Source: a virus
Lineage: Duplodnaviria > Heunggongvirae > Uroviricota > Caudoviricetes
Length of the DNA stretch: 64,000 nucleotides
Strand: one strand, 5' to 3'
IMG/VR virus record: IMGVR_UViG_3300021400_002728
Location: 165,154-229,153 of that record
A program made the translations under genes and the position numbers. Each line of letters opens with the position of its first letter. Positions within the stretch are counted from its first letter, which is position 1. Shown piece after piece: positions 12,301 to 62,725 of the stretch. Below the pieces are notes generated by a model, which was not told the DNA's origin, made no database searches, and saw only the letters and a list, made by a program, of their open reading frames with translations.

Positions 12301-12360
12301 AAAATGACCAGCTTCATTTCTGAAACCAGTCATTTTTCTCATCCTTATATAATTAAATAG
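12301..12360 (-). repeat. leader element copy 1 (CTATTTAATTATA..GRATGHGAAAAATGAC-hairpin-GTCATTTT)
   Basis: matches 15-copy consensus. Confidence 0.85.
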
Positions 12361-12364
12361 CCTT

Positions 12365-13129
12365 TTATGTACTAAGAATACGTTTAGCTAAATTATCTAT
12401 ACTACCTAAATAATTAGTTACTATTCTAGAATAATCTACAAGCATCTCTGGATCATATTTATCTGGTCTAGCCCAAACTATTCTCTCTACAATACTTTTT
12501 CCAATATCTTTACCATAAGGTTCAGTAGTATCTTCATTATAACTAAAGCATATCATTAAATTATGTATATATTCTTTAGGATTATAATCTATACAAGTTT
12601 TTGGCGCATATTTAACTATCCATTTAGTAGTATTACCATCCTGATAATAATCATCTAAATATTTATTCCAATATTTGCTGTTCCAATCAAATATCCAAAC
12701 TAAGTTATATCCAGCATGTAAATAAAAAGATGTTCTATTAAAAAATTCTTCTGAAGACATTGGACTATGTTGAAATTCTACTACAAAATTCTTATAGCAA
12801 ATATCTGCTATATGTGTCTCTTTAGTCATATCACCTATATAATCTGGATCATTAGGATATAATTCTGCCCAAGTTTTAGTGATTATAACTTCTCTATACT
12901 CTTTAGGAAATAATGACTGACAATACCTATGCCATTCACTCATTTCATTATCATAGTCATCAACACAATCGCTATTAGTTAAATGTGAAAAATATGGAAT
13001 TTTTACATCTCCAGCTTTAAGAATAACTTTTTCTCCACAACATGGACATATATAAGATTTATTTCTACCATACTTATATAAAGCATCATCTGCATATACA
13101 ATTTGGTTATCTAATATAGCTACTTGCAA
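12365..13129 (-). CDS. CoiA-like nuclease
   Basis: CPCCGEKVILKAG..KIPYFSH, HIADI, VEFQHSPMS, GY..VWIFD. Confidence 0.8.
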   Translation of the reverse strand: MQVAILDNQIVYADDALYKYGRNKSYICPCCGEKVILKAGDVKIPYFSHLTNSDCVDDYDNEMSEWHRYCQSLFPKEYREVIITKTWAELYPNDPDYIGDMTKETHIADICYKNFVVEFQHSPMSSEEFFNRTSFYLHAGYNLVWIFDWNSKYWNKYLDDYYQDGNTTKWIVKYAPKTCIDYNPKEYIHNLMICFSYNEDTTEPYGKDIGKSIVERIVWARPDKYDPEMLVDYSRIVTNYLGSIDNLAKRILST

Positions 13130-13168
13130 TATATTCTCCTTCTACACAAAGGCTATAATGTCTTCATG

Positions 13169-14236
13169 TTAATCTTTTGTTTTAACTAAAGTATCAGCAC
13201 TTAATGGATTGTTCTGGACTAACTCTCCAGCACCATATATAGTATAGTTATTATCTTTATAAATAACTTCAGCCTTAGGAATAGTATTAGTTAAGTTGTT
13301 TTTATTAAAATCATCTTTAGGATAATTATCTGTTCCTAAAATTAGATCTTTTAATAACTGTTTTTGCTCTTCAAAATCTTCAAATTCATATATATGAATA
13401 AGTCGAATACATTTGTCTCTACAAAGTAAAGACTTATTTAGATGATAATCTTTTGGTGCACCCAGTTCAATACTATGCCATCTTGTCCCATTATATTCAA
13501 TACCTATTTTAAGGTCAGGTAAATAAATATCAATTTCTTTAGGTGAAATTACTGATTTACAATCATGTTTTATAGTTCCACTATAAATAGACTGAACAAA
13601 TCTCAATAATTCCATTTCTTTATGAGATCGATTATTATGAATAGTTTCCTCAATATATGTTTCAATTTTAGGAATATCTGAGATATAATAGTAATTAGTA
13701 TATCGTCCACCCTGCAACATTTTTACTGGTTTTATTATATTATCCCAATACCACATCCAGCCATACTTTTCAGTAAGTTGTTCTTTAGTAATTAGCTCTG
13801 GATGCTCAGCAATAAAATTATCTTTTATTTTATATTTAGTCTGTGCAGACTTTATACCAACTTTTTTAGCAATTTCTTTTCTTTTTAATGGATGATCTAC
13901 TCCAAATTTAGCTAATCGATCTTGTTTAATTCTTTCTTTTATTTCTTCAGATTGATATGGATTTTCTACTCCGTATTTTTCAAGATTTGTAGCTTTAAGT
14001 TTTTCTTGAACCTTTGGATCCAATGTGCTACATCTGACTGAACAGTGCCTACGATAACCACCTTTAGTAAGACCTTTGAAACTTGTAGGTTTTCCGCAAT
14101 ACTGACAAAACTCTTCACCTTCAGTTTTTAAGTAAGTATCATAATAGTCTTTTGTAGATAATTTATGTATAAATCTAAGGTGATTCCTAAATTTACCAGT
14201 ATTATCTGTCTCAAAATCACATATAGCACATTTCAT
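13169..14236 (-). CDS. free-standing homing endonuclease (Zn finger + Hef/Vsr-like nuclease) fused to a duplicate of the upstream gene's tail
   Basis: EIDIYLPDLKIGIEYNGTRWHS, IRLIHIYE; ends GELVQNNPLSADTLVKTKD. Confidence 0.8.
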   Translation of the reverse strand: MKCAICDFETDNTGKFRNHLRFIHKLSTKDYYDTYLKTEGEEFCQYCGKPTSFKGLTKGGYRRHCSVRCSTLDPKVQEKLKATNLEKYGVENPYQSEEIKERIKQDRLAKFGVDHPLKRKEIAKKVGIKSAQTKYKIKDNFIAEHPELITKEQLTEKYGWMWYWDNIIKPVKMLQGGRYTNYYYISDIPKIETYIEETIHNNRSHKEMELLRFVQSIYSGTIKHDCKSVISPKEIDIYLPDLKIGIEYNGTRWHSIELGAPKDYHLNKSLLCRDKCIRLIHIYEFEDFEEQKQLLKDLILGTDNYPKDDFNKNNLTNTIPKAEVIYKDNNYTIYGAGELVQNNPLSADTLVKTKD

Positions 14237-14250
14237 TTTTCAAATTCCTT

Positions 14251-15273
14251 TCAATCTTTTACTTCTACTAAAGTATCAATGCTTAGAGGATTATTTTGAA
14301 TAATTATGTCAATAGGTAAGATTTTGAAGTAATCTCTATCTTTTCCCCTGACCCACACCGTGCATGCGACTTTCACCGCACACGGCGCTCCATCAAGGTT
14401 TAATTATTCTCGAGTTACGATTAAACCATTGACTTGTGTCCATTCCTACTACTCTTATTACAAGAGTTATCCACAGTTCGAACACTACTTTTCATCATTA
14501 CTAAAGAAGCTTATTATTCTTCGTCTTCACCATAAAAATATGTATAATGACTTTCCTTGTTCCATAAGATATTATCCGTACATATTAGTTTAGGTGCCTA
14601 TTATAAATATTACTAGCTAGATATAACCCGCCACATATAATGTTTCGTTATATAAGGAATTTCATAGTCCGGAATTTTACTTTTCCTCACTAATAATATT
14701 CTTCGATCATAGGTTCGTCTTACTATATTACTCACCTTGCTAATTTTATGGACGACCGGATTACTAACAACCCGACTTTAGCGAGCTTCATACATAACTC
14801 TTTACAAATTATGCATGTCGCAGTCTCATCGCTATATATTCAGAGCGTTACCTCTTCATTTATATAGTCATATCTTATAGTTCTTATACTATCATAAGGT
14901 CAATCTTTTCAATTGACAACAAGTCGCACCCGGGCAAGACTGTAGCATCATTCCTTTGAGTACAAAGTATACAATGAATGCCAGCACTTCGACCTAATTG
15001 AGTTATCGATTGGATATTACTAATTATTTCATCTTTAAGCGCGTCTTCAGCTTTACCTTCAGTAGTTTTAATACCAGATTTACCGGTCAACTCCGCAATC
15101 TCATCGACGACTATGAGTAGACGTGGCATTTCATCTGTATAGCATTTATCAACACAATTCTTATTGACTGGAATCCAATGTTCACCATCTAATTGAATTT
15201 CAAGCTCAGGTAGTTGAACTTCTACTTTAGCTTTAGCGGCTGAACCGCTATCTTGATGATCGAACCAACCCAT
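14251..15273 (-). CDS. FtsK/SpoIIIE-like ATPase middle fragment, two exons (14930-15273 and 14251-14305); 132 aa spliced
   Basis: MPRLLIVVDEIAEL Walker B, LGRSAGIH..LCTQR; splicing gives ...ATVLPGIIQNNPLSIDTLVEVKD*; no Walker A. Confidence 0.75.
14306..14929 (-). mobile_element. ORF-less group II intron (624 nt)
   Basis: 5' GTGCG; domain V GAGCGCCGTGTGCGGTGAAAGTCGCATGCACGGTGTG; ends ...TTACCTATTGACAT; shares GTAACTCGAGAA with the first intron; removal restores frame. Confidence 0.9.
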
Positions 15274-15277
15274 GAAA

Positions 15278-16108
15278 TCACTCCTTTCTTAATAAGTCAG
15301 TAAATCTATTTTTCATTTCCTGTGTAAATCTATCAAGTATTGCTAATAAGTCAGGATAAGGTGAAAGTCTATTTCTTACTTCCTGAACCATTTCTTTTGG
15401 AATAGGATAATAAGCTTCTGCCATACTTCCAGCAATACAAGTTAATGTATCGCAGTCTCCACCTAAAGAAACTGCATTTCTAATAACATCTTCAAAATCT
15501 GTACCTTCAAAGAAAGCTGTCATAGCTTGAGGTACGGTTTCTTGACAGGACTCAACATGATGATAGTCAGGTCTAATTTCATCACAAGTCTTAGATAAGT
15601 CATAACCAAAACAGTCATGAACATACTTTTTGATGAATGTTTTATCATAACCTGTTCTAGCTAAAAAAATAACTGCAGCAACTGATTCTGCACCTTTGAT
15701 ACCTTCTGGATGATTATGTGTTACTTCAGCAGTAAGTCTAGCAATATCTCTAGTTTCTTTTACTGAATTGTATAACCATCCTGCAGATGAAACTCTCATA
15801 GCTGAACCATTACCAAAACTATTATATGGTTTTGGATCATTAGATTTAAGCCACCAAGAGAATCTTGTTCCGTAGCCTTCCCAGGGATAAAGTTCGCCAT
15901 ATTTTTTCATAGACTTAATAACAGCTTCTTTAATATCCTCTGGTGACGCATGGAGCGTATCTAGGAGTGCTTCTGCAACAGCTAGAGTCATAACAGTATC
16001 ATCAGTTTTTCTGCTTGAGTCTATCCAAAATGGAAAATCTTTTCGTTTTTCACTTCTATCATATTCATATGGTGCGCCAACCATATCACCTAAAATTGCT
16101 CCGTACAT
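15278..16108 (-). CDS. ADP-ribosylglycohydrolase (DraG/ARH family)
   Basis: GAILGD, TDDT, SFGNGSAMR, THNHPEG, GGDCDT motifs. Confidence 0.9.
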   Translation of the reverse strand: MYGAILGDMVGAPYEYDRSEKRKDFPFWIDSSRKTDDTVMTLAVAEALLDTLHASPEDIKEAVIKSMKKYGELYPWEGYGTRFSWWLKSNDPKPYNSFGNGSAMRVSSAGWLYNSVKETRDIARLTAEVTHNHPEGIKGAESVAAVIFLARTGYDKTFIKKYVHDCFGYDLSKTCDEIRPDYHHVESCQETVPQAMTAFFEGTDFEDVIRNAVSLGGDCDTLTCIAGSMAEAYYPIPKEMVQEVRNRLSPYPDLLAILDRFTQEMKNRFTDLLRKE

Positions 16109-16198
16109 ATATTCACCTTCTTTTAATAAACAAAAAATGCCTGTCATTTTTCAGACAGGCATAATTTCAGCTCTACCTACACAAGGACAGGAGAGTAA

Positions 16199-16471
16199 TT
16201 AGATATTAGTCCAATGGTCACCTTCAAACTGAATCTGACCAAGTACATCTGTCTCAGTAAACTTAACACCATCAGATGTACCGATAACTACAGTTCCAAT
16301 ATTGCCTGAAATCTTAACTATAATAAAATAAGGCTCAGGATCATTTAGATCATAAATAAATGACTCCTTAGAAATGAATTTCTTTCTAGCCTCATCATAG
16401 TCAAACTCAATCGGATCAATATTGAGCTGATCAAAGTACTGTTTCATTACATCATTAATATTTGTATTCAT
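16199..16471 (-). CDS. hypothetical protein
   Basis: ORF with RBS. Confidence 0.65.
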   Translation of the reverse strand: MNTNINDVMKQYFDQLNIDPIEFDYDEARKKFISKESFIYDLNDPEPYFIIVKISGNIGTVVIGTSDGVKFTETDVLGQIQFEGDHWTNI

Positions 16472-16503
16472 TATATAATTTCCTTTCGTTTTTAATTAAA
16501 TAG

Positions 16504-18237
16504 TTATTCATTGTCATCGTCTTCAACGTCTTCTTCAGACTCATTATCAAATAAGAATCCAATCTTGTGATCTTTATCCTTACCTCTATTGTAGATTCTT
16601 GTAAGGTTTAACATACGTCTACCGTCAAAGCCTTTTTCATCACCTTCAGCATCTGCGAAAGTATAGAACTGGAAGATGAAACTTTCATCTGCATCCAATT
16701 CAATATTTGTAAGAATAGCCACACCTGAAGATACATTGAATTCTTTGATGTGAGATCTAAGCTCATCAATAAGCTCAATTGGTTTATAGAGAATAATATT
16801 ACCTCTAAGTCTACCACGTTTCTCAAAGTAGTATGTCTTATCTTTAAGAACATTTGCCTTAGATGTACCAGCAATACCTTCAAGTAATGGCTTAGTAAGT
16901 TTAGGATCTCTTGAGTTATCAATAAGAATCTCAAGAACCTCATCCCAACCTCTAACTGCTTCATAGTAGTCAGATAATTTATTTCTAGCTACATATTTAG
17001 CAATAGCCTTACGATCTTTCTCAGGCATATCATAGAAATCATAATAAATCTTAAGCATGTTAAGGATATGTTCCTTAAGTATAGTAAGATCAATAATTTC
17101 AGGGTACATATTATAGATAATGTATTTAGGTGCATCCTGCTTATATCTAACTAATGCTTTCTGAACAGTATCGAAGTAACCTAAACTTAATGCAGTATCA
17201 ATATCAATAAAAGCAGTCATAGCATCTAGACCACTAGTATTATATTCTTGATACAGTTCGTCTCTAAACTGTTTAACTTTAGAATATTCTACATAGGTCT
17301 TAACATTATTAAGGAATCTAGTCTTAATGTCATCTACTATTGCAGTTTCAGTATAGTTTTTGATAGTGATCTTATTTCTAATTTCGGTCTCAGCATTATC
17401 AAAGTATGATGCCAAATTAGTCTTATACATAGTCTTAGAACTTAACATACCAACTATGCGATCTTCAAGATTAGGTACATTAACAGATGCAATTATAGGT
17501 TCAGCATTAGCAATAAGCTGAGCTTTAGTAAGACTAGCACCATTTGGCCAAATCTGAGCCTTAATTACTCTTAACCATTTAAGTGTTTCATCTTTAACTT
17601 TCATCATTGCATCATAGTTCTTAAGATATTCTTCATGTTCTTTCTTAGCATTCTCTTCAAAATCTTTAATAAGCGAGTTATATTTTTCTTCAGAAATCAT
17701 TACACAATTACCATTTTCTACCATACCATAGAAAGTATAACCTTCATCATTTCTTACCTTACGTCTATAACATTTAACAAATGCTAAATGATTACTACCA
17801 TAATGACAATCTTTAGACCAAGTTTTCCACTCTTGTTCAAGATCTAAGGTATCAAGGAATTGCTGAGGTCTAGACCAACTGAATCTAGATCCATCCCAAA
17901 AAGATTTAATAATCTCTTCACCTTTAGCCTTAATAATAGCATCATCATTTCCATTATCTGTTTGAATGTCAATAATTTTAGTTTCTTTGCCGTCTTTACG
18001 TGTATATGGAATAAGCTTAGCAGTAACAGTAAATTCACCTTTACCAGACTTTCTAGGTACCTTGAATGTTACAGTTTTTCCTGCTACAATAGCATCAAGA
18101 TGTGCTTCAGTAAAATAACCTTTAGTCATATAGTTGTTATAAACTTCTTCAAATATTGATAAATTTTTCTTTTTTCCGTCAGTGTCGATATACTGATAAT
18201 ACCAACCATAAGGACCATGAAGTACTTTATTAGCCAT
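16504..18237 (-). CDS. large hypothetical protein; N-terminus has one topoisomerase C-terminal-repeat-like unit
   Basis: FTEAHLDAIVAGKTVTFK..RKSGK similar to repeats in 23970-24488. Confidence 0.7.
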   Translation of the reverse strand: MANKVLHGPYGWYYQYIDTDGKKKNLSIFEEVYNNYMTKGYFTEAHLDAIVAGKTVTFKVPRKSGKGEFTVTAKLIPYTRKDGKETKIIDIQTDNGNDDAIIKAKGEEIIKSFWDGSRFSWSRPQQFLDTLDLEQEWKTWSKDCHYGSNHLAFVKCYRRKVRNDEGYTFYGMVENGNCVMISEEKYNSLIKDFEENAKKEHEEYLKNYDAMMKVKDETLKWLRVIKAQIWPNGASLTKAQLIANAEPIIASVNVPNLEDRIVGMLSSKTMYKTNLASYFDNAETEIRNKITIKNYTETAIVDDIKTRFLNNVKTYVEYSKVKQFRDELYQEYNTSGLDAMTAFIDIDTALSLGYFDTVQKALVRYKQDAPKYIIYNMYPEIIDLTILKEHILNMLKIYYDFYDMPEKDRKAIAKYVARNKLSDYYEAVRGWDEVLEILIDNSRDPKLTKPLLEGIAGTSKANVLKDKTYYFEKRGRLRGNIILYKPIELIDELRSHIKEFNVSSGVAILTNIELDADESFIFQFYTFADAEGDEKGFDGRRMLNLTRIYNRGKDKDHKIGFLFDNESEEDVEDDDNE

Positions 18238-18258
18238 ATTCTACCTCCTTATCAAAAT

Positions 18259-18322
18259 AAAATGACTGATCTATAATCAGACCAGTCATTTTTCTCATTC
18301 TTACTATGTTATAATTAAATAG
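18259..18322 (-). repeat. leader element copy 2
   Basis: matches consensus. Confidence 0.85.
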
Positions 18323-18326
18323 TCTT

Positions 18327-21316: not shown

Positions 21317-22720
21317 TTATTTCATTCTTTTAATAGCTTCCTCAGCAAGAGGGCTTCTTACACATTGATCAGGTTCAAAGCGAATGATTGCACATAAAGG
21401 ACTACCTTTCATACAATCTTTTGCATAAACCAAACCGTTATTTCTCTTATCAAGCTTAGTATTATCAACCTGTGAAGGATCTCCAGCAATAATTACTTTT
21501 GTATTCTGACAAGGTCTGGTAACTACGTCTTTAATAAGATTCTTAGAAGCATTCTGTGCTTCATCACAGATAAGATAGGCATTGTTAATTGAACGACCTC
21601 TAATAGAATAAAGAGGGCATAATTCAATGTATCTATCATACATCATATCTTCAATGACTCGTCTTGTATCTGCAATAGGTGTGTCTTTATCACCAAGAAT
21701 AACTTCGAGGTTATCCATATAAGACGCAACCATAGGACCCATCTTTTCCTCAAGTGTACCTGGCAAATAACCAAAGTCTGCATCAGATGTATTAGCATTA
21801 GGTCTAGAAATTAGAATTCTGTTATAGATTTCTTGTGTATCATTATCTGACTTCTTTTTGCTAATACCTAACTGATGTAATCCGCATGCCAATGATGCAA
21901 ATGTTTTAGATGTACCTGCAGGTCCTTCTAGAATAACTAAAGGAATATCAGGATTAGTTAATGCCCACATTGCATATGTTTGCATCTTATTAAGTGGATG
22001 AATATTTCCATGCACAATAATATCATTGATCTGCTTAATAATACCTTTCTGATATACTGTAAGCACGCATTTATCACCACATGTAATAGTTACAAACTGA
22101 TTTTCATATAATGGATATTTTAATTTTCCAATTTCGTCAATCAATTCTGCCTCTATTTGATGATTCTTATAAATTTCATCTATAATAGTCCAATCTGCAA
22201 TTTCAAGATTTAAGTGACCTGAATATCCAATATACTCGATCTCTTCACTTTTTATAGTATCAGCATTAACATCACATATAAGTGAATTAATAAAACATCC
22301 AGTATCATTTGTGAGAAGAGTAACTGGACTATCTTTAAGATAGTTCTTATTCATATGTACACAAGAAGAAATTATTCTATTGTCTGGAACTGATATATCA
22401 TATCCTTTAGGAAGATTAGAAACATCAACTCCATCTGGCTCAAAGAATAACTTTCCACCATTAGGAAGATCAATTCCCTGATCTCTTACAATTTTAATTC
22501 TGTCTTCTTTAGGTACATTGTCAATTGCATCTTTAATTAAATTAGCAATGATACGGAGAGCTTCTCTGGCATTATAACCAGGCTCTCCTGCATCTTTTTT
22601 GTGTTTATCTAATTCCTGGATAACTGTACCACAAAGACGAACATTGTTATCCTCGAAACTAAAAATAGCATTAGGATTGGACATCAAAATATTGGTGTCG
22701 AGTAAATAGTTCTTAACCAA
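21317..22720 (-). CDS. phoH: PIN-PhoH family ATPase (PhoH2/YlaK-like)
   Basis: PIN LLDTNIL, DNRII; GPAGTSKT, GYLPG.LEEK, RGRS, DEAQN, GDPSQ.D. Confidence 0.9.
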   Translation of the reverse strand: MVKNYLLDTNILMSNPNAIFSFEDNNVRLCGTVIQELDKHKKDAGEPGYNAREALRIIANLIKDAIDNVPKEDRIKIVRDQGIDLPNGGKLFFEPDGVDVSNLPKGYDISVPDNRIISSCVHMNKNYLKDSPVTLLTNDTGCFINSLICDVNADTIKSEEIEYIGYSGHLNLEIADWTIIDEIYKNHQIEAELIDEIGKLKYPLYENQFVTITCGDKCVLTVYQKGIIKQINDIIVHGNIHPLNKMQTYAMWALTNPDIPLVILEGPAGTSKTFASLACGLHQLGISKKKSDNDTQEIYNRILISRPNANTSDADFGYLPGTLEEKMGPMVASYMDNLEVILGDKDTPIADTRRVIEDMMYDRYIELCPLYSIRGRSINNAYLICDEAQNASKNLIKDVVTRPCQNTKVIIAGDPSQVDNTKLDKRNNGLVYAKDCMKGSPLCAIIRFEPDQCVRSPLAEEAIKRMK

Positions 22721-24488: not shown

Positions 24489-24539
24489 AATAATTTCCTT
24501 TCTAAACTAAGTTTACTACTTATATAATTAAATAGTTCT

Positions 24540-25301
24540 TTAGTATGTTTTTGATAAACCTTCTAAGCATACCCAAAGACATCCACCTAAAAGAATAAGT
24601 GGAGCAAATGGAAGTGCAACTACTACTCCAGTAGCCACTAAAGCCCCCATTCCAACACCTTTAGCAACGTCACCAGTTTTATCTAATGCATTTCCAATAG
24701 CTTCTTTTCTAGCAGCTTTCTTAGCTTCTTTGGCTGCTTCTGCATCCTCTAACTCTTTTGCTTTTCTAGCAGCTTCAAATTCTTCTGCAAATACGAGCTT
24801 ACTAAGGTTAATATTATAAGTACTATCTGCGTTTAACTGATCTTCAAATAAATCAAAAATTCTTTGTACTCTTTGTTGATCGTGTTCTATCCAATCTCCA
24901 CCCATAGAACAATTAGACTGACTTAATACAACCTGATCTAAGTTAGAAAATTCAAATTTACCGGGTTTATCATTAGCTAAATTTTCATAGTATTCAAGTA
25001 CAGGATCTTCTGATAACTCACGTATACAATCAGGATTTCTATATACTTTGCCATTTATCATTTCCTCTTCTGGCTCATCATATCCAAATTTACCATTTTT
25101 GCATACAATATAAATAAGTAAACTTATATCATTATTACGATCTGTAGTTAAACGAAACTCCTGAACATGAAGATCAAATTCGAATTTTACAGGACCACTA
25201 CGAGTACGAGTGTCTAATGTTATATGTCTACCTTCATTATCTTCCTTAAATTTAGCTTCCATTTGAGTAACTAATTTATCAATTTGATCAAAGTTTAACA
25301 T
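24540..25301 (-). CDS. hypothetical protein with C-terminal membrane anchor
   Basis: hydrophobic C-terminus. Confidence 0.65.
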   Translation of the reverse strand: MLNFDQIDKLVTQMEAKFKEDNEGRHITLDTRTRSGPVKFEFDLHVQEFRLTTDRNNDISLLIYIVCKNGKFGYDEPEEEMINGKVYRNPDCIRELSEDPVLEYYENLANDKPGKFEFSNLDQVVLSQSNCSMGGDWIEHDQQRVQRIFDLFEDQLNADSTYNINLSKLVFAEEFEAARKAKELEDAEAAKEAKKAARKEAIGNALDKTGDVAKGVGMGALVATGVVVALPFAPLILLGGCLWVCLEGLSKTY

Positions 25302-25329
25302 AATATTCCTCCTTATTTATAATAAACAA

Positions 25330-25391
25330 AAAATAACTCATCTATTTCTAGACAAGTTATTTTTCGCATTCATTCTTATATAATTAAATAG
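25330..25391 (-). repeat. leader element copy 4 (covariant stem)
   Basis: AAATAAC..GTTATTTT. Confidence 0.8.
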
Positions 25392-25832: not shown

Positions 25833-26255
25833 TTAATAACTTTTATTAATTATTGTATAATCTTTAGGAATAGATTGATATTCTGAATATTCTGGTGTAT
25901 TAATGTAATCTGCATCTGGATTAAATAAGAATTGAGATAATTCAGATTCACTCATATTAAATCCGAACATATAATCTTCAAATTCAAGATCTGTACCAGT
26001 GTCGTTAATTACATTGACACCTTTACTAGCTAAGTACTGTAAATATGCCGATGCATATCCATTTTCTTCAGCAAGACTATACATAAATGCCATTCTCGTT
26101 TCAATAGATGGATGACGATCTGAAATATAGTCAGTACTCATAAGCTTAGATAATTTTATTTCTGTTGGAATTTTCTGTCCTTTATTAGGTGGTAATATGA
26201 AACAGTGTGAACTAGAACTATTAGTTTCAAATAATCCATTTCTTACATTAAACAT
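25833..26255 (-). CDS. FETNSSS-motif family protein
   Basis: MFNVRNGLFETNSSSSH. Confidence 0.75.
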   Translation of the reverse strand: MFNVRNGLFETNSSSSHCFILPPNKGQKIPTEIKLSKLMSTDYISDRHPSIETRMAFMYSLAEENGYASAYLQYLASKGVNVINDTGTDLEFEDYMFGFNMSESELSQFLFNPDADYINTPEYSEYQSIPKDYTIINKSY

Positions 26256-26276
26256 ATTTAGTCTCCTTTACAAAAC

Positions 26277-26333
26277 AAATACCTAATCTTTACAGACTAG
26301 GTATTTTTCAATTCCTCTATTATAATTAAATAG
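26277..26333 (-). repeat. leader element copy 5 (covariant stem)
   Basis: AAATACC..GGTATTT. Confidence 0.8.
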
Positions 26334-32424: not shown

Positions 32425-32444
32425 GATTATACCTCCCTTAAAAA

Positions 32445-32509
32445 ATATGACTTGCTTCCTATTATAAGAAACAAGTCATTTTTCACCATCCACTATTATA
32501 ATTAAATAG
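32445..32509 (-). repeat. leader element copy 6
   Basis: matches consensus. Confidence 0.85.
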
Positions 32510-37246: not shown

Positions 37247-37267
37247 ATATATGCCTCCTTTCAAACC

Positions 37268-37329
37268 AAATGACCCGCCTCATATGAGACAAGTCATTTT
37301 TCGCATCTACACTATTTATAATTAAATAG
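37268..37329 (-). repeat. leader element copy 7
   Basis: matches consensus; G-U pairs on minus strand. Confidence 0.85.
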
Positions 37330-39224: not shown

Positions 39225-39242
39225 AATAACCTCCTATCAGAT

Positions 39243-39305
39243 AAAATGACCTACCTCTTTCAAGATAAGTCATTTTTCACAATCCATACTATTATATATA
39301 AATAG
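39243..39305 (-). repeat. leader element copy 8
   Basis: matches consensus. Confidence 0.85.
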
Positions 39306-41649: not shown

Positions 41650-41673
41650 AGAAATACCTCCTTATATACAAAG

Positions 41674-41737
41674 AAAATGACCTGCCTCTAGTGAGACAAG
41701 TCATTTTTCACTTTCATACTATATTATAATTAAATAG
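41674..41737 (-). repeat. leader element copy 9
   Basis: matches consensus; G-U pairs on minus strand. Confidence 0.85.
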
Positions 41738-46673: not shown

Positions 46674-46698
46674 GCTGGATCCTCCTTTTATATAATAC

Positions 46699-46759
46699 AA
46701 ATAGCGTACCTATTGCTAGATACGCTATTTTTCACATTCATACTATTATATATAAATAG
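46699..46759 (-). repeat. leader element copy 10 (covariant stem)
   Basis: AAATAGCG..CGCTATTT. Confidence 0.8.
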
Positions 46760-50180: not shown

Positions 50181-50212
50181 ATTATAACAAGAAACCGTCA
50201 ACTTGTAAATAG
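50181..50212 (-). promoter_or_regulatory. sigmaA-type promoter
   Basis: CTATTTACA-N17-TATAAT with TG. Confidence 0.75.
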
Positions 50213-51661: not shown

Positions 51662-51684
51662 GATGAATACCTCCTTTATCAAAC

Positions 51685-51726
51685 AAAATGACCTGCTTCT
51701 TTCGAAACAAGTCATTTTTCACATTC
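51685..51726 (-). repeat. leader element copy 11, hairpin half only (CTATTTAATTATA half at 52034-52049)
   Basis: GAATGTGAAAAATGAC abuts the stop codon of 51727-51999. Confidence 0.8.
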
Positions 51727-51999
51727 TTACTTATCTAAAACTAATTTCATTCCTTTGCCCCAAATCATAGTCTCAACTGGTGCATATAGATCATTGAACT
51801 TCTGACTTTTCTTAGGCTTGATATTGATTAGTGTAACTTTATTACCATCTAAGCTAATATCTCCTTTCATCTGAAGTTCATTAAGTTCATTTTCAACTTC
51901 TTCTTCCGTCATTTCTGATACATCAGCAATTTTTGGAATATCTAATTCAAACTCGTTACTATTAAAGTAACTTCCTAAATAACTTAAAACTTTATCCAT
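51727..51999 (-). CDS. small possible winged-helix protein lying between the two halves of a leader element
   Basis: IPKIADVSEMTEEEVENELNELQMKGDI. Confidence 0.6.
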   Translation of the reverse strand: MDKVLSYLGSYFNSNEFELDIPKIADVSEMTEEEVENELNELQMKGDISLDGNKVTLINIKPKKSQKFNDLYAPVETMIWGKGMKLVLDK

Positions 52000-52110
52000 T
52001 TTTGCTCCTTTGCTAAATAATTATATCTTACACTTATATAATTAAATAGCACTTCAATATGGAGCAAAAATAAAAAGGTGTACCACTTTTATATGATACA
52101 CCTTTATTAT

Positions 52111-55200: not shown

Positions 55201-55232
55201 ATTATATCACGATCTAACCTATTTGTAAATAG
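55201..55232 (-). promoter_or_regulatory. sigmaA-type promoter
   Basis: CTATTTACA-N17-TATAAT with TG. Confidence 0.8.
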
Positions 55233-55471: not shown

Positions 55472-55490
55472 TTTGATCTCCTTTCCAAAC

Positions 55491-55556
55491 AAAATGACTA
55501 ACCTTATATTTAATAGACTAGTCATTTTTCACATTCATTCTTATAATATTAAATAG
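55491..55556 (-). repeat. leader element copy 12
   Basis: matches consensus. Confidence 0.85.
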
Positions 55557-56821: not shown

Positions 56822-56832
56822 ACTATACCTCC

Positions 56833-57888: not shown

Positions 57889-57900
57889 ATTATTATCTCC

Positions 57901-58143
57901 TTATTCAATCATAACTAAAAGATAGTCATTAGTATATTTCTGAGCAATTACACTATATTCAGATAACTGTCCATAGTTACTTCTTGATACCTTATAAAAA
58001 TCTCCAACATTAAAATCACTTAAAGATGATAATAACTGCTGCATCTTTAACTGCTCACTTGCAGGAACATTTGCGCTCCAAGTAAATAATACTTTGTCAT
58101 TCTCAATGTCAGTGAAGCTTAAAAACTGTGGAAATGTCATCAT
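57901..58143 (-). CDS. hypothetical protein
   Basis: ORF with GGAGG RBS. Confidence 0.6.
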   Translation of the reverse strand: MMTFPQFLSFTDIENDKVLFTWSANVPASEQLKMQQLLSSLSDFNVGDFYKVSRSNYGQLSEYSVIAQKYTNDYLLVMIE

Positions 58144-58156
58144 GTTAATGTCCTCC

Positions 58157-58624
58157 TTAATAACCTCCGTCTTCTGGATCTTCTAAATTTGTTTCACATT
58201 CCTCTTCAAATGTACACATAACAATCTCATACATATCAGTACCTTTGAAAGTATGTATGTTCTGAAATGGTTCATTTGCCGGATTACATTCTTGAAGTAA
58301 ACTTCCTGGAATATCTGCCTTATAAACACATGAGTTGATGTCTTTATAATATTCGCATCTATTATTCCAATCATACTCAAAATTATTTTGGTTTAATGAG
58401 TCTATATCAACTTTTAGAACTACTATATCTTCTGGACACTCATCAGCGCATTCTGCATAAGCTTCAGCCGCATCAGCATCTAGTGCTAGAAATATCTTAC
58501 CTTTAAGAGCTGCTACACCTATTTCCTCTTTAAACGCATGTTCAGGTGGATTAATTAGCAATCCGTTTTGTTTGATAGACTCTAAATTTTTTCTGTCTGT
58601 TGCATGATAGAGATATAAACTCAT
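58157..58624 (-). CDS. ADP-ribosyltransferase-fold protein (Tpt1/KptA C-domain-like)
   Basis: LYHAT...NL.SI...GL, IFLA.....A..YA, VVLKVD, IP...L. Confidence 0.6.
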   Translation of the reverse strand: MSLYLYHATDRKNLESIKQNGLLINPPEHAFKEEIGVAALKGKIFLALDADAAEAYAECADECPEDIVVLKVDIDSLNQNNFEYDWNNRCEYYKDINSCVYKADIPGSLLQECNPANEPFQNIHTFKGTDMYEIVMCTFEEECETNLEDPEDGGY

Positions 58625-59061
58625 GTTGTTACCTCCTCATCACAAGTAAGACTAATATAAGACTCTTTTAATTGCTGATAAATAGTAATAAACTGTTCAG
58701 CTACATCCGAATCATATCTATCGAATCTTTCATAATAACCATCATCCAAAGCATCTTTCATAGCCATAAGATCTGACTTATTAGTTTTATGACTAGCTAC
58801 AAATAAGAATAAATCTGTACGACTATCCACCTCTGTAAGATACTGAATCATCTTTTGAAGTTGATCATTATTTAAGATTCCTTTATATATAGGCATATCA
58901 TTAAACAAACATTCTAATACATGCTCATGAATAGCATTATATGCCTTCTTTTCAGTTTCAAATATAACTTCATCACCATCCAGTTGAACAGTAAAATAAG
59001 GTCCATCAGTAGAAATATCATAATCACCATTGAAGGTATGAATAGTTTTTAATATTTCCAT
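58621..59061 (-). CDS. hypothetical protein
   Basis: ORF with GGAGG RBS. Confidence 0.65.
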   Translation of the reverse strand: MEILKTIHTFNGDYDISTDGPYFTVQLDGDEVIFETEKKAYNAIHEHVLECLFNDMPIYKGILNNDQLQKMIQYLTEVDSRTDLFLFVASHKTNKSDLMAMKDALDDGYYERFDRYDSDVAEQFITIYQQLKESYISLTCDEEVTT

Positions 59062-59081
59062 ATTAACCTCCTTAATAAGAA

Positions 59082-59141
59082 AAAATGGCTAATCCTTTCA
59101 GATTAACCATTTTTCGCATTCATTCTATTAATATTAAATAG
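59082..59141 (-). repeat. leader element copy 13 (covariant stem)
   Basis: AAAATGGTTAATC..GATTAGCCATTTT on minus strand. Confidence 0.8.
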
Positions 59142-59145
59142 CTCT

Positions 59146-59358
59146 TTAGCCACCATAGTGGGAATCTCTCCAGTCCTGATATTTTTCTCTAGCAACTTCA
59201 TACTGTTCAGTATAATATTTGAAAGCAACATCCATTACTTCAGAACTATATTCTTTTATGAAATCATCCTTACTCATAGGATGCATGCAAGAAAAATCTG
59301 AGCTGGACCTTAATTGAATTGTTTTGAGTATATCCTTTAATTCATCTTCACTTTTCAT
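59146..59358 (-). CDS. hypothetical protein
   Basis: ORF with RBS. Confidence 0.6.
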   Translation of the reverse strand: MKSEDELKDILKTIQLRSSSDFSCMHPMSKDDFIKEYSSEVMDVAFKYYTEQYEVAREKYQDWRDSHYGG

Positions 59359-59367
59359 ATAAACTCC

Positions 59368-59843
59368 TTACTGAACGAAGTCCTTGAGATCAGTAAAGAC
59401 AAGAGTCTTAATCTTATCCTTATACTTAGAAGCCTTCTCGAAGTCTTTGATATACTTATCACATCTCTTAAGAATTACGTCCTTATCTGTGTCCTGAGGA
59501 ACCTTGACATAAAACTCCTTATAACCGTCTGTCATAACTACGATAGAAGCATATCCAGCTTTGACTGCTTTCTTATAATACTTCTCATAATCTGCGAGAA
59601 CTAAGATCTCATAAAGCAGACACTCAAGACCATAAATGCTATCCGGTCCATAAAACTCTTTTGCTACTGCATCAAGTTCCTTAGTATCAAATTCATATTA
59701 ATCAGGTCCACCCCCCAACCGTCTTGAGACCAGAAACCTTTCTTAACTCCATTGAAGTAAATATTTCCCTGATAATTAGTCGGATATTCATGACCTCTAA
59801 AAGTCTTTACATTCTTTATCTCGATTCCTTTTATACTTGCCAT
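59368..59843 (-). pseudogene. hypothetical gene broken by a frameshift in a G-run (~59711-59716) and an adjacent TAA
   Basis: MASIKGIEIKNVKTFRGHE...DGWG/GPD*YEFDTKELD... to TAA at 59368. Confidence 0.6.
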
Positions 59844-59884
59844 AACAATACCTCCAAATATTGTGTTTGATTTATTATGGTTTA

Positions 59885-59916
59885 ATTATAACATAGAATC
59901 TAGATAATGTAAATAG
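59885..59916 (-). promoter_or_regulatory. sigmaA-type promoter
   Basis: CTATTTACA-N17-TATAAT with TG. Confidence 0.8.
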
Positions 59917-59918
59917 TT

Positions 59919-60218
59919 TTACCAGTCATCTCCAACTAAAATATCAAGACATTTGTCACCATCATGATCAAACCAATTATAGCCAAGTACTTTAACTTTT
60001 TCAGAATAACTATCTCCATCTAATGAAATAAGAATATTTTTATCCCACTTAAATACTCCGCAGAATCCAACTATAGTATCAGCTATAACTTCTACACTAT
60101 GTACCTGTACAACGTTAATAGTAGTATCTTTGAACATCTCATTAAAAGACATTGGATTTTCTACTATAGTAAAATTCTTGTATCTAGGTAATTTCTTTAT
60201 AATTTCCTTCCAATTCAT
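59919..60218 (-). CDS. hypothetical protein
   Basis: start MNWKEI; GFCG.F.W....LISLDGD.Y. Confidence 0.65.
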   Translation of the reverse strand: MNWKEIIKKLPRYKNFTIVENPMSFNEMFKDTTINVVQVHSVEVIADTIVGFCGVFKWDKNILISLDGDSYSEKVKVLGYNWFDHDGDKCLDILVGDDW

Positions 60219-60252
60219 TATAATTATTTTTCTCCTTAATATAAAGTTCTCT

Positions 60253-60786
60253 TTATTTAATTGAAAATTTTGGATTAACCGCGATCCATAGATCTTTGCC
60301 GTCATTACTTTCAGATTTTTCCCATTTTTCGGCAATAACACCAAATTTTTCTGCCTCTTTAATCATATCTTCTACGCTACTAGCTATATGACTACGGTAA
60401 TGTGCATGATTCGCGGTGTAAAGAATAAGCTCCCACGAATTATAGTCATCATCATAAATAATTCCAGCTTCTGTAAAATGTTCACCGCAATAATCTAAAG
60501 CTATATAGTTTTGTTCAATAAAAAGCTCTACCTGTTGTTGTAATTCTTTTAGGTCATCACCAATTGGTGTATGGTGATCAAAATCAAATGAACTACCATC
60601 TTTTTTAATAACTTTTATTCTTCGATCACGGTCAGTACCACGAATTACGGTAATATACTCATTATCTCCTGAAATAAATGGATATTGTGCTACTTTTAAA
60701 GGACTGTCAGCATGCACTTTAATAATTACTTGATTATCGTCAACTTCTGCTATTGAAAAAATATTGTCTAAGTCATAAGTTCTCAT
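60253..60786 (-). CDS. hypothetical protein
   Basis: ORF with RBS. Confidence 0.65.
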   Translation of the reverse strand: MRTYDLDNIFSIAEVDDNQVIIKVHADSPLKVAQYPFISGDNEYITVIRGTDRDRRIKVIKKDGSSFDFDHHTPIGDDLKELQQQVELFIEQNYIALDYCGEHFTEAGIIYDDDYNSWELILYTANHAHYRSHIASSVEDMIKEAEKFGVIAEKWEKSESNDGKDLWIAVNPKFSIK

Positions 60787-60814
60787 ATTAAATTTCTCCT
60801 TTTCTCATAAATAT

Positions 60815-60866
60815 AAAATGACTTGTCTATTATTAGACAGGCTATTTTTCACATTCATACTATTAT
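60815..60866 (-). repeat. leader element copy 14, truncated by the AAA gene stop codon
   Basis: hairpin and GAATGTGAAAAAT present, CTATTTA half absent. Confidence 0.75.
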
Positions 60867-62006
60867 TTACCATCTATTAGGACCATTTTGTTTTTTCTCA
60901 TCAATTGGATATAAGAAGTCTGCTTTTTTAGCTGAATACTCTTCAGTAAAACCTTTTGTCATATAACTGTTTCGATCATGCCTTGCTATTGCAATAGCAT
61001 CTTCCTCTGTCTCAGCTGCCACATTAGATTTCCAAGTGTATGTAACTTCCCAAACACCAGTATTTGCGTTCGTATCATTATTGTCAGGTATTATTTCATC
61101 TTTCTTCTCTTCAAAGATAGCTTTACCTATAAACTTGATAAGTTCTGGCATTATCTGTCCAGGATTATGATATGTTGTAGCAAGCTCAGCAATGACATTT
61201 TTGTCTATATATTTTTCTGTATCAGTTGCCTTAATATATTGTCTTATCATAGCATTAAGTTCAACTGTAGTCATATTCTTGATCTCATGCTTTATAGAGA
61301 GTCTTCTCATAAGAGCATCATCTACAATATCAAGACGATTTGTAGCTGCAATCAATACTACATGATTAGGTAGTTTGTCAAGTTCCTGCATAATAGAGAT
61401 TGTTGTTCTTTCTAGTTCACCATCTGCTCCTTTGCTACCACCAGAACTTCGCTTTGTAGCTACACAATCAACTTCATCAAGCATCAAAACACATGGAATA
61501 GTATTACAAAACTCGAATACTTTATGAATATTCTTTGCAGTACCACCCATATATGAGTCAATCATAGATGAAAATGATATATAGAAAAATGGCAAGTTGA
61601 GCTTATACGCAATATACTTACCAAGTTCTGTTTTGCCTGTTCCAGATTCTCCATATAAGAGTGTTGTATTCTTATATGGGATATCTCTAAGTGACATTTC
61701 ATCAGCAACATACTTCATCTTTATTATGTCATCAACAATCGCAGATTCGCTTTCTCTAACATAATAGCGATCTGCTTTGAATCCACCAGGAGAACTTCCA
61801 ACAAGGAATGTCTGTATATCACTTGGTAGATTAGACATAAGAATGCTTGCATTACCGACAAGAAGTTTGCGATAATACTTTATCATATCAGCATTTTTCT
61901 TCGATGTATCTTCTGCAAGAGAAGCCATAGCTGCCATTCTTGCTCTGTGTATATCATTTTTTGCTATTGCCTTGATTATCTCAAGATTATTATTTGTAAG
62001 AGCCAT
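60867..62006 (-). CDS. AAA+ ATPase
   Basis: LLYGESGTGKT, LMLDEVD, AATNR..D.AL.RR. Confidence 0.9.
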   Translation of the reverse strand: MALTNNNLEIIKAIAKNDIHRARMAAMASLAEDTSKKNADMIKYYRKLLVGNASILMSNLPSDIQTFLVGSSPGGFKADRYYVRESESAIVDDIIKMKYVADEMSLRDIPYKNTTLLYGESGTGKTELGKYIAYKLNLPFFYISFSSMIDSYMGGTAKNIHKVFEFCNTIPCVLMLDEVDCVATKRSSGGSKGADGELERTTISIMQELDKLPNHVVLIAATNRLDIVDDALMRRLSIKHEIKNMTTVELNAMIRQYIKATDTEKYIDKNVIAELATTYHNPGQIMPELIKFIGKAIFEEKKDEIIPDNNDTNANTGVWEVTYTWKSNVAAETEEDAIAIARHDRNSYMTKGFTEEYSAKKADFLYPIDEKKQNGPNRW

Positions 62007-62079
62007 ATATTTCTCCTATACTACAATCTGACATATAAAATAATATGTCATAAATTATTGTTAAATTTCCACACTTATT

Positions 62080-62637
62080 TCATGAAGCTTTTAATTTATA
62101 TGTCGGATGATTTCTATGCATAGTATCATCTATAAAATACTGATTATAATCTCCAGTGGCTTCAAGCATTTCTCTAGTAACTACATCAAAATACTTAATT
62201 AGTTCAGCTAAAGTGTCATCTTTCTGATTATACATTAAACGTTCAAATTTATGATTTAATTGTTCATTTATAGGTCGATTAACTAATAATCTTCCCCAAC
62301 CTTCTATATCATTACAATTAAACTCACCTTGTTTAAATGAAAAATCAAATAATTCATCATAACTAGAATGTTTTCTATAGTTCTTTACAATTTTGCTAAC
62401 AATTCGTTCAATATATTGTTTAGATTTAGGACTATAAGGCTTAACTTTACGCTTTTTCATTAGAGGTTTAACGATTGGCTTAAGCAAAAATAGAATTAAA
62501 CACAAAACCCAACATACAGGTCCAGCTATAATAATGTCAAGAGTCTCAACGATATAATAACCAGAACTGTCTTTATATAAGGTTACAATCGTTAAAATCA
62601 ACGAATAGATCAAAATCGTAATTATTACTTGCAGCAT
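62080..62637 (-). CDS. hypothetical membrane protein
   Basis: two N-terminal TM segments. Confidence 0.65.
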   Translation of the reverse strand: MLQVIITILIYSLILTIVTLYKDSSGYYIVETLDIIIAGPVCWVLCLILFLLKPIVKPLMKKRKVKPYSPKSKQYIERIVSKIVKNYRKHSSYDELFDFSFKQGEFNCNDIEGWGRLLVNRPINEQLNHKFERLMYNQKDDTLAELIKYFDVVTREMLEATGDYNQYFIDDTMHRNHPTYKLKAS

Positions 62638-62666
62638 CTAAATTAGTCCTTTCTAAATACTTAAAT

Positions 62667-62725
62667 AAAATGACCTGCCTAAAAGACAAGTCATTTTTCA
62701 CATTCACACTATTAATAATAAATAG
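62667..62725 (-). repeat. leader element copy 15
   Basis: matches consensus. Confidence 0.85.

What the first reader, a model, noticed from the sequence alone, without database searches (positions are those of the whole stretch)
12301..62725. Fifteen copies of a motif + conserved leader + RNA hairpin element upstream of gene blocks
Seen (minus strand): upstream stop codon, CTATTTA(A/T)T(T/A)ATA, a variable spacer, G(A/G)ATG(T/C/A)GAAAAATGAC, a stem with variable loop, GTCATTTT plus T-tract, then RBS and ATG. Stems covary (TGAC/GTCA, TAAC/GTTA, TACC/GGTA, TAGC/GCTA). In the copies checked (3, 7, 9, 15) the imperfect pairs are G-U on the minus strand, so the hairpin probably acts as RNA in the sense transcript. 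The order promoter-like motif then terminator-like hairpin is the reverse of a normal operon junction. Inference: a genome-wide attenuation/antitermination switch in which the conserved GAAUGHGAAAAA is a nut-like protein-binding site, or a family of ~50-60-nt small RNAs acting as decoys. It also resembles the promoter/stem-loop cassettes that shuffle modules in T4-type phages.
Basis: partly seen in the sequence, partly recalled or inferred. Interest (0 to 1): 0.85.

Follow-up and report, generated by a model that had tools for sequence, protein, structure and literature searches.

The report
Promoter plus leader-terminator cassettes, jumbo phage
An uncultured 394-kb phage and three relatives divide a region of small accessory genes with a repeated unit, a phage-type promoter followed by a conserved terminator-like RNA hairpin, which is a reversed-order variant of the known "PeSL" promoter/stem-loop cassettes of T4-type phages.

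Summary
The window holds 15 copies of a covarying 14-bp hairpin with an A-tract before it and a U-tract after it. All lie on the coding (minus) strand, and 13 sit directly behind the motif AAGAG-CTATTTAATWATA. The window lies in a complete 394-kb jumbo-phage record with terminal repeats.

The motif ("P2") is genome-wide: 52 copies on the coding strand against 2 on the other. It is separable from the hairpin family, which has 21 copies. Both recur in three related jumbo phages of 290-467 kb, one sharing only about 49% protein identity.

Terminator-like hairpins follow P2 (23 after, 6 before). They precede the genome's second, sigmaA-like promoter class (16 before, 1 after).

Most likely this is a composite promoter plus leaky 5'-leader terminator cassette. 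It insulates gene modules and moves with them. In one case a gene is flanked by two P2 copies where the relative has a single P2.

Whether read-through is regulated (antitermination) is open. The "nut-like" site is weaker than claimed, because half of it is simply the A-tract partner of the U-tract. No Rfam family matches.

This scan has noted PeSL-like cassettes in other jumbo phages, on unrelated DNA. I rate this a new variant of a known kind, of moderate interest.

The parts
62651..62725 (-). Cassette 1: P2 motif (62713-62725) plus leader GAATGTGAAAAAT plus hairpin plus U-tract, then RBS and ATG
60799..60856 (-). Cassette 2: leader, hairpin and U-tract only. The P2 motif is lost (only ...ATAATAGTAT remains) and the element follows the stop of the AAA-ATPase gene
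59066..59141 (-). Cassette 3: P2 (59129-59141) plus leader plus hairpin
55475..55556 (-). Cassette 4: P2 (55544-55556) plus leader plus hairpin (10-nt loop)
51669..52049 (-). Split cassette 5: P2 (52037-52049), a 90-aa gene (51727-51999), then leader and hairpin (51669-51726) right after the stop. Five downstream genes have no recognised promoter before P1 at 50211
   Evidence: the same arrangement is seen in the relative G001
46682..46759 (-). Cassette 6: P2 plus leader plus hairpin (stem variant TAGC/GCTA)
41658..41737 (-). Cassette 7: P2 plus leader plus hairpin; also flagged as terminator-like by the consensus scan
39227..39305 (-). Cassette 8: P2 plus leader plus hairpin (GAAA loop)
37251..37329 (-). 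Cassette 9: P2 plus leader plus hairpin
32428..32509 (-). Cassette 10: P2 plus leader plus longer hairpin
26260..26333 (-). Cassette 11: P2 plus leader plus hairpin (TACC/GGTA). The whole module with its 140-aa gene is absent from relative G001
25314..25391 (-). Cassette 12: P2 plus leader plus hairpin (TAAC/GTTA). Together with gene 24540-25301 it is flanked by a second P2 (24523-24535), where relative G001 has a single P2
19349..19424 (-). Cassette 13: P2 plus leader plus hairpin
18243..18322 (-). Cassette 14: P2 plus leader plus hairpin
12285..12360 (-). Cassette 15: P2 plus short spacer plus leader plus hairpin; the hairpin is nearly identical in G001
24523..24535 (-). P2 motif without a hairpin, directly followed by RBS and gene
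8461..8473 (-). P2 motif without a hairpin, followed by a P1 (sigmaA-like) promoter at 8416-8446

Best explanation
Each copy is a composite regulatory cassette of a jumbo phage that infects a low-GC Gram-positive-type host.

Part 1, the promoter. The 18-nt single-block motif AAGAG-CTATTTAATWATA ('P2') is a phage-specific promoter. Transcription most likely starts at or within about 2 nt of its 3' end.

Part 2, the leader. It runs AUAGWRU-GRAUGN-GAAAAAU, then a 12-15-bp stem, then AUUUUNUUU. It folds in the sense RNA into a Firmicutes-style intrinsic terminator: A-tract, stem-loop, U-tract.

How it works (inferred). The hairpin is the first terminator met by polymerases coming from the upstream gene block, so it insulates successive modules and gives their mRNAs a 3' hairpin. 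It also lies inside the 5' leader of the P2 transcript, a few nt before the RBS. It must therefore be leaky or bypassed, acting as an attenuator. Output of each module would be P2 firing multiplied by read-through, and the read-through mRNA keeps a stable 5'-proximal hairpin.

Evolution. Cassette plus gene behaves as an insertion/deletion module, as PeSL cassettes do.

Shown: the structure, its strand, the terminator features, the promoter-like distribution, the order bias, conservation in four phages, and modular indels.

Inferred: promoter activity, the start site, termination and read-through.
For: Genome. It is a 394,266-bp virus record with direct terminal repeats. Essentially all genes are on one strand and there are 39 tRNAs.

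P2 looks like a promoter:
- Sense versus antisense counts are 52/2, 44/1 and 45/8 in three genomes.
- It is intergenic, starts right after stop codons and lies upstream of an RBS and ATG.
- In six cases it follows an ordinary terminator.

Start site near the motif end. In G002 the Shine-Dalgarno sequence begins 1-5 nt after the motif in five genes. In G000 a tRNA-Asn begins 7 nt after it.

The hairpin is an RNA structure on the sense strand.

Terminator features:
- On average 6.7 of the 9 nt after the closing G-C pair are T, against a background T fraction of 0.32.
- The invariant A-tract pairs with the first Us.
- Fold energy is -16 to -21 kcal/mol.
- Two copies are called terminator-like by an independent scan.

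Order bias. Terminator-like hairpins begin within 30 nt after P2 in 23, 15 and 10 cases, and lie before it in 6, 4 and 8 cases. For the sigmaA-like class P1 the counts in G000 are 1 after and 16 before.

Read-through is required. Every hairpin lies between P2 and its RBS. The promoter-less copies at 51669-51726 and 60799-60856 are followed by genes with no recognised promoter.

Conservation. There are 21, 11, 7 and 15 copies in four jumbo phages. Median protein identity to G000 is 79% for G001 and 49% for G002. Orthologous copies in G000 and G001 differ by compensatory changes.

Modularity. One gene is flanked by two P2 copies where G001 has a single P2, and one whole P2-hairpin-gene module is present or absent. 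Of the 21 G000 copies, 18 lie in an 80-kb region of small genes, of which only 14% have homologues in G002.
Against: - There are no transcript data. Promoter activity, the start site and termination are all inferred.
- A terminator inside a promoter's own leader wastes transcripts unless it is bypassed, and no bypass factor was identified.
- If transcription started inside the 5' arm, the element would be an ordinary overlapped terminator/promoter and not an attenuator. The TTTAAT-to-GAAAAAT spacing peaks at 17 nt, which hints at a -35/-10-like reading. However, it ranges from 12 to 24 nt, against a tight 17 nt in P1.
- The single-stranded block GRAUGNG is conserved in four genomes, including promoter-less copies, and this model does not explain it.
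- Indel boundaries at cassettes are not clearly more frequent than expected for gene junctions in general (my estimate).
Confidence: 0.55

Rival explanations
1. Regulated antitermination regulon. The hairpins are efficient terminators. Module expression is switched on by a phage factor that binds the single-stranded GRAUGNGAAAAAU, blocking the 5' arm as HutP, TRAP or LicT-type proteins do. Alternatively, a factor is loaded at P2, as lambda Q is. A third version: P2 is served by the phage's own RNA polymerase or sigma factor, which ignores the terminator, while host-polymerase transcription from P1 promoters is stopped.
For: - The order P2 then terminator is conserved and class-specific, which a loading or bypass model requires.
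- GRAUGNG is conserved across phages with 49% protein identity and is kept in promoter-less copies.
- The same leader occurs with different hairpins or none.
- The genome encodes two sigma-70-family factors, beta- and beta'-like RNA polymerase genes, and a 164-aa protein with a sigma region-4 domain. That protein sits behind a P1 promoter and has a sub-threshold Q-like match.
Against: - No NusG, CAT_RBD, cold-shock or Antiterm family member was found.
- The Q-like hit is below the cut-off and is explained by the region-4 helix-turn-helix.
- No alternative antiterminator fold was seen: the sense folds give only the terminator hairpin.
- Loops are not conserved.
- Conservation of columns 1-8 is partly ascertainment, because the search model includes them.
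Confidence: 0.25
2. Mainly an mRNA stability or processing element. The hairpin protects the 5' end of module mRNAs from 5'-end-dependent decay (RNase J1 or RNase Y in Firmicutes), possibly after cleavage in the A/U-rich single-stranded GRAUGNGAAAAAU. Termination would be secondary.
For: - The hairpin is placed after the promoter and just before the RBS in all copies.
- Non-family hairpins behind P2 start only 0-3 nt after the motif in at least 8 cases, that is, at the very 5' end of the predicted transcript.
- The hairpin is sense-strand specific.
- From general knowledge, not checked against a paper here: 5'-terminal stem-loops stabilise mRNAs in Bacillus subtilis and in T7 late transcripts.
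Against: - A stabiliser does not need the strongly conserved U-tract.
- In the family copies the hairpin starts 7-20 nt after the motif end, mostly 13-17 nt. That is far for 5'-end protection unless the RNA is processed.
- No phage RNase III was found.
Confidence: 0.15
3. The cassettes produce abundant terminated RNAs of about 55-60 nt, with a conserved 5' seed and a terminator hairpin, that act as regulatory or decoy RNAs.
For: The architecture of promoter, conserved single-stranded 5' segment, then terminator is that of many bacterial small RNAs (inference).
Against: - The complement of the seed is absent from the phage mRNA strand: 0 exact and 2-3 one-mismatch sites per genome.
- Every copy is followed at once by an RBS and a gene, and the promoter-less copies cannot make such RNAs.
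- The host is unknown, so host targets could not be tested.
Confidence: 0.04

Closest known systems
PeSL (promoter-early stem-loop) cassettes of T4-type phages (Arbiol et al. 2010, PMC2839356; Comeau et al. 2014, PMC4122927)
   Same: - Repeated intergenic units of about 60-100 nt combine a promoter, a stem-loop with terminator features, and the Shine-Dalgarno sequence and start of the next gene.
- They are concentrated in hyperplastic regions of small ORFan genes.
- Genes flanked by two cassettes in one phage correspond to a single cassette in a relative.
- In phage nt-1 the stem also has an A-tract and a T-tract.
   Different: - In PeSLs the promoter is a sigma-70 -35/-10 early promoter. The stem-loop lies just upstream of it, between its boxes or over the -10 box, so the promoter's own transcript escapes the terminator.
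- Here the promoter is a single-block non-sigma-70 motif and the hairpin lies wholly downstream, inside the transcript's leader.
- There is an extra conserved single-stranded block.
- The genome's true sigmaA-like promoters are not part of these cassettes.
- The phages are uncultured 290-467-kb jumbo phages, for which I found no evidence of T4-like kinship.
Lambdoid late-gene control: pR' promoter, promoter-proximal pause, terminator tR', antiterminator Q (PMC6606751, PMC9388147)
   Same: A promoter is followed closely by an intrinsic terminator that must be read through for downstream genes to be expressed.
   Different: - Lambda has one such unit per genome, not 15-20.
- No Q-family protein scores above threshold.
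- No sigma-dependent pause element or Q-binding element was shown.
5'-leader attenuators of Firmicutes controlled by RNA-binding proteins (TRAP, PyrR, HutP, LicT/SacY type)
   Same: An intrinsic terminator lies in the 5' leader, with a conserved single-stranded segment overlapping its 5' side, repeated at many loci.
   Different: No competing antiterminator structure and no matching protein family were found. Knowledge of these systems is from memory and was not tested here.
Morons of lambdoid phages (a gene with its own promoter and terminator)
   Same: A self-contained transcription module is gained or lost as a unit between related phages.
   Different: Here the terminator is shared with, and placed at the head of, the next module. 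Knowledge of morons is from memory.

Membership tests
PeSL cassettes (T4-type phages) | Repeated intergenic composite of promoter plus stem-loop plus SD/ATG | tested here: met
   15 copies in the window and 21 in the genome, each with motif, hairpin and RBS
PeSL cassettes (T4-type phages) | The promoter is a sigma-70-type -35/N17/-10 early promoter with an AT-rich upstream region | tested here: not met
   P2 is one 18-nt block with no conserved second element. TTTAAT-to-GAAAAAT spacing ranges 12-24 nt. The genome's sigmaA-like class P1 is separate.
PeSL cassettes (T4-type phages) | The stem-loop lies upstream of, or overlaps, the promoter boxes | tested here: not met
   The hairpin begins 7-20 nt after the motif end in family copies. 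PeSL positions are as described in PMC2839356 and PMC4122927.
PeSL cassettes (T4-type phages) | Enriched in hyperplastic regions, and indels between related phages are bounded by cassettes | tested here: met
   18 of 21 copies lie in an 80-kb region of small genes. Two clean examples exist. Enrichment over ordinary gene junctions was not shown.
Intrinsic (factor-independent) terminator | A stable stem-loop immediately followed by a U-tract on the transcribed strand | tested here: met
   Fold energy is -16 to -21 kcal/mol. On average 6.7 T occur in the 9 nt after the closing G-C pair. Two copies are flagged by the consensus scan.
Intrinsic (factor-independent) terminator | Actual release of transcripts at the U-tract | not testable with these tools
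   No transcript data exist for this uncultured phage
Lambda N/nut antitermination site | A boxB hairpin with a conserved loop, recognised by N, next to a conserved boxA | tested here: not met
   Loops vary in length (3-10 nt) and sequence. No boxA-like consensus was compared.
Lambdoid Q antitermination | A Q-family protein encoded by the phage | tested here: inconclusive
   PF06530 scores 20.9-23.1 bits, below the 26-bit cut-off, in a 164-aa sigma region-4 protein. PF03589 gives nothing.
Any Rfam RNA family | A match at the gathering threshold | tested here: not met
   Only two group II introns matched in the window, and nothing matched at the cassettes
5'-terminal mRNA stabiliser hairpin | The hairpin lies within a few nt of the transcript 5' end | tested here: inconclusive
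   With the inferred start site, family hairpins begin mostly 13-17 nt in, while non-family hairpins behind P2 begin 0-3 nt in. The start site is not mapped.

The most novel reading that the evidence does not exclude
A phage-wide promoter-proximal attenuation regulon. About 20 gene modules per genome are each gated by the same leader terminator. They are released together by one unknown phage factor or by the phage's own polymerase: either a protein binding GRAUGNGAAAAAU, or a factor loaded at the P2 promoter, with the 164-aa sigma region-4 protein as a candidate. This would be a multi-copy, Q- or TRAP-like temporal switch not described for jumbo phages.
Probability: 0.22. Interest if true: 0.75.

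Novelty: new variant of a known kind. Interest (0 to 1): 0.45.

Why it matters
Jumbo phages of Gram-positive-type hosts are mostly uncultured and their transcription programmes are unknown. This cassette gives three things:
- two clearly separable promoter classes for one such clade;
- a new, strongly covarying leader RNA family absent from Rfam;
- a conserved promoter-then-terminator order that predicts either class-specific terminator bypass or a dedicated antitermination factor.

It also marks the joints at which accessory genes are gained and lost. If read-through proves to be regulated, this would be a compact, portable expression switch. If not, it is one more example of PeSL-like modular punctuation, extended to a new promoter type and a new phage group.

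Tried and rejected
- P2 plus leader read as a sigma-type -35 (TTTAAT) and extended -10 (TGtGAAAAAT) pair, with the start site inside the hairpin arm. The spacing is broad (12-24 nt, mode 17) against the tight 17 nt of class P1. In G002 the SD sites lie 1-5 nt after the motif, and a tRNA lies 7 nt after it. Both put the start at the motif end. Rejected as the main reading but not excluded.
- DNA-level operator or cruciform. Rejected because stems covary instead of keeping their sequence, and about 61 G-U cells would be C-A mismatches on the other strand.
- A small upstream ORF (AUG-UGA start-stop) in GAAUGUGA. The codon after AUG is UGA in only 30 of 52 copies, and by reading the leaders no SD-like sequence precedes the AUG.
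- Small-RNA seed targets on phage mRNAs: none found.
- Similarity searches of the window DNA and of a 577-aa protein against GenBank phages: no match.
- Temporal class of P2 from gene function. P2-driven genes are mixed (SbcD-like nuclease, NrdD, clamp loader, homing endonucleases, a tape-measure-like protein, a 4367-aa protein). No clean early/late assignment could be made.
- The phiKZ dRNA-seq paper (PMC8244752) and the T7 Tphi abortive-transcript paper (PMC2952870) were read for a promoter-then-terminator precedent. Neither describes one.


Full report
**What the sequence is.** The window is bases 165,154-229,153 of a single 394,266-bp contig. IMG/VR classes it as a complete virus genome with direct terminal repeats. 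GC content is 32%, and essentially all ORFs and all 39 tRNAs are on one strand, the window's minus strand. The genome encodes:
- two sigma-70-family factors with regions 1.2, 2 and 4;
- adjacent beta-like (750 aa) and beta'-like (411 aa) RNA polymerase genes;
- topoisomerase II, a helicase, clamp loaders, an RNA ligase/kinase, NrdD and a tape-measure-like protein.

Ribosome-binding sites are strong GGAGG-type, so I infer a Firmicutes-like host. GenBank phages hold no near or protein-level match to the pieces tested.

**Checking the observation.** Both short motifs are far over chance and almost wholly on the minus strand. I aligned the 15 copies. RNAalifold gives one 14-bp helix, with compensatory changes in 9 of 14 pairs. 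A covariance model built on it finds exactly those 15 copies in the window. It finds 21 coding-strand copies in the whole genome: the 15 window copies plus six outside it.

On 40 copies from three genomes, 96.1% of cells pair and 10 of 14 pairs covary. No shuffle out of 500 reaches the observed score, and slid registers pair in only 32-48% of cells. With 55 copies from four genomes the result is the same.

About 61 cells are G-U pairs. Sense-strand folds are -18 to -23 kcal/mol and the complements -9 to -13 kcal/mol.

**Two separable modules.** The motif extends to AAGAG-CTATTTAATWATA, which I call P2. It is genome-wide: 52 copies on the coding strand against 2 on the other. It lies right after stop codons and upstream of ribosome-binding sites. 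Only a subset of copies carries the hairpin family.

Conversely, three hairpin copies in this genome lack P2. These are window 60799-60856, window 51669-51726 and genome 323,801-323,860. They follow a gene's stop codon directly. In the 51669-52049 case, P2, a 90-aa gene and the leader-hairpin come in that order, and relative G001 has the same arrangement.

A second promoter class, P1, reads AAAAC-TATTTACA-N14-TGnTATAAT. It is a near-consensus sigmaA-type promoter with tight 17-nt spacing and has 74 copies. It drives the sigma, polymerase, topoisomerase and helicase genes.

**The order is class-specific.** I scanned the coding strand for hairpin-plus-U-tract sites.
- In the three genomes, such sites begin within 30 nt after P2 in 23, 15 and 10 cases. 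They lie within 60 nt before P2 in 6, 4 and 8 cases.
- For P1 in G000 the pattern is the reverse: 1 after and 16 before.
- 54% of P2 sites in G000 have such a hairpin within 75 nt, against 3.7% of random 75-mers.
- Unrelated, non-family hairpins also follow P2, several starting 0-3 nt after the motif.

The promoter-then-terminator order is thus a property of the P2 class, not only an accident of one duplicated sequence.

**Where transcription probably starts.** No RNA data exist, so this is inference. In G002 the same motif is followed by a Shine-Dalgarno sequence after only 1-5 nt in five genes. In G000 a tRNA-Asn begins 7 nt after it. If P2 serves these genes, the start lies at the motif end, and the whole leader and hairpin are in the P2 transcript.

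I tested the alternative that CTATTTAAT is a -35 element and TGtGAAAAAT an extended -10, which would put the start inside the hairpin arm. The spacing has its mode at 17 nt but ranges from 12 to 24 nt, unlike P1. I keep this as a minority possibility that start-site mapping would settle.

**Terminator features and the need for read-through.**
- After the closing G-C pair, on average 6.7 of 9 nt are T, against a background of 0.32.
- The invariant GAAAAAU pairs with the first Us, the A-tract/U-tract form common in Firmicutes terminators (that commonness is from general knowledge).
- Two copies are flagged by the independent consensus scan.

Yet each hairpin sits between P2 and its RBS. The promoter-less copies are followed by two to five genes with no recognised promoter before the next P1. 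The hairpin therefore cannot be a complete stop. It must be leaky or bypassed.

**Relatives.** Pattern scans of IMG/VR found three more jumbo-phage records with the cassette: 331,944 bp, 290,311 bp and 467,383 bp. They hold 11, 7 and 15 model hits, most behind the same P2 motif. P2 shows the same strand bias in the two relatives scanned whole.

Median protein identity to G000 is 79% for G001 and 49% for G002. Orthologous cassettes in G000 and G001 sit at the same places and differ by compensatory stem changes. In G002 some leaders keep AGAAUGGAUGU but use it as the 5' arm of a different hairpin. The block G-R-A-U-G-N-G is conserved, though part of that is ascertainment because the search model includes it.

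**Modularity.** The G000 and G001 regions are highly mosaic, with about 45 indels or replacements in 97 kb. Two cases are clean:
- Window 24523-25391 holds P2, leader-hairpin, a 253-aa gene and a second P2, where G001 has one P2 between the same flanks.
- The module P2, hairpin and 140-aa gene at window 25833-26333 is simply absent from G001.

By my rough estimate, cassette-adjacent breakpoints are not more frequent than expected for gene junctions in general. The recombination role is therefore plausible, not proven.

**Search for a factor.** No NusG, RNase III, T7-type polymerase, cold-shock, CAT_RBD or Antiterm family member was found. For T7-type polymerase the control search also found nothing, so that result is uninformative.

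A 164-aa protein directly behind a P1 promoter has a sigma region-4 domain above the Pfam cut-off. It has only a sub-threshold Q-like match, and its best PDB matches are SigA region 4. It is a candidate P2 or read-through factor, nothing more.

No complement of the leader occurs on phage mRNAs. Rfam has no matching family.

**Comparison with known systems.** The closest system is the PeSL cassette of T4-type phages. In PeSLs the promoter is sigma-70-type, and the stem-loop is upstream of, or overlaps, the promoter. Those two defining features are not met here. I therefore call this a new variant that works like a PeSL as insulator and recombination joint, with an added leader-attenuator property. 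I do not call it a member.

The lambda pR'-tR'-Q system and the Firmicutes leader attenuators are functional analogies only.

This scan has reported PeSL-like cassettes in several other jumbo phages on unrelated DNA. The same element was noted in overlapping windows of this genome. No look-alike stretch in any other window was indexed.

**Verdict.**
- Best explanation (0.55): a promoter plus leaky leader-terminator cassette that punctuates gene modules and moves with them.
- Regulated antitermination (0.25).
- Stability or processing element (0.15).
- Small RNAs (0.04).

Noticed in passing
window 14306-14885 and 4310-4907, minus strand: Two compact group II introns: Rfam D1-D4 plus D5/D6 matches at 52-93 bits, each spanning about 580-600 nt. 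They lie between ORFs and may split genes.
   Followed up: no
window 59885-59915, 55201-55231, 50181-50211, 8416-8446, 3128-3158 (minus strand); 74 copies genome-wide: A second promoter class, AAAAC-TATTTACA-N14-TGnTATAAT, which is sigmaA-like with an extended -10. It shares CTATTTA with the P2 motif. It is preceded, not followed, by terminators, and it drives the sigma, polymerase and replication genes.
   Followed up: partly
G000:C1:292774-293268, minus strand (L182:1480-1974): A 164-aa protein with a sigma-70 region-4 domain (Pfam 30.9 bits) and a sub-threshold Q-antiterminator match, directly behind a P1 promoter. It is a candidate specificity or read-through factor.
   Followed up: partly
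G000:C1:286368-289155 and 58091-61556: Two adjacent full-length sigma-70-family genes (455 and 468 aa), plus adjacent beta-like (750 aa) and beta'-like (411 aa) RNA polymerase genes. Only one such polymerase set was detected.
   Followed up: partly
G002 (L095-L109), e.g. coding-strand positions 242568, 260372, 264096: Variant leaders in which the conserved AGAAUGGAUGU forms the 5' arm of a different U-tailed hairpin, starting 1-3 nt after the P2 motif. The GAAAAAUAAUAAAA segment then forms the loop.
   Followed up: partly
window 12348-62725, P2 sites: In many copies P2 plus the next four bases reads CTAT-N9-ATAG, an imperfect inverted repeat. It could pair in read-through RNA or bind a dimeric protein.
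   Followed up: no
G000 whole genome: 39 tRNA genes, all on the coding strand. One, tRNA-Asn, starts 7 nt after a P2 motif.
   Followed up: partly
window 7049-8194 and 21317-22720, minus strand: An HNH endonuclease gene, and a PIN-PhoH fusion gene, among the small accessory genes.
   Followed up: no
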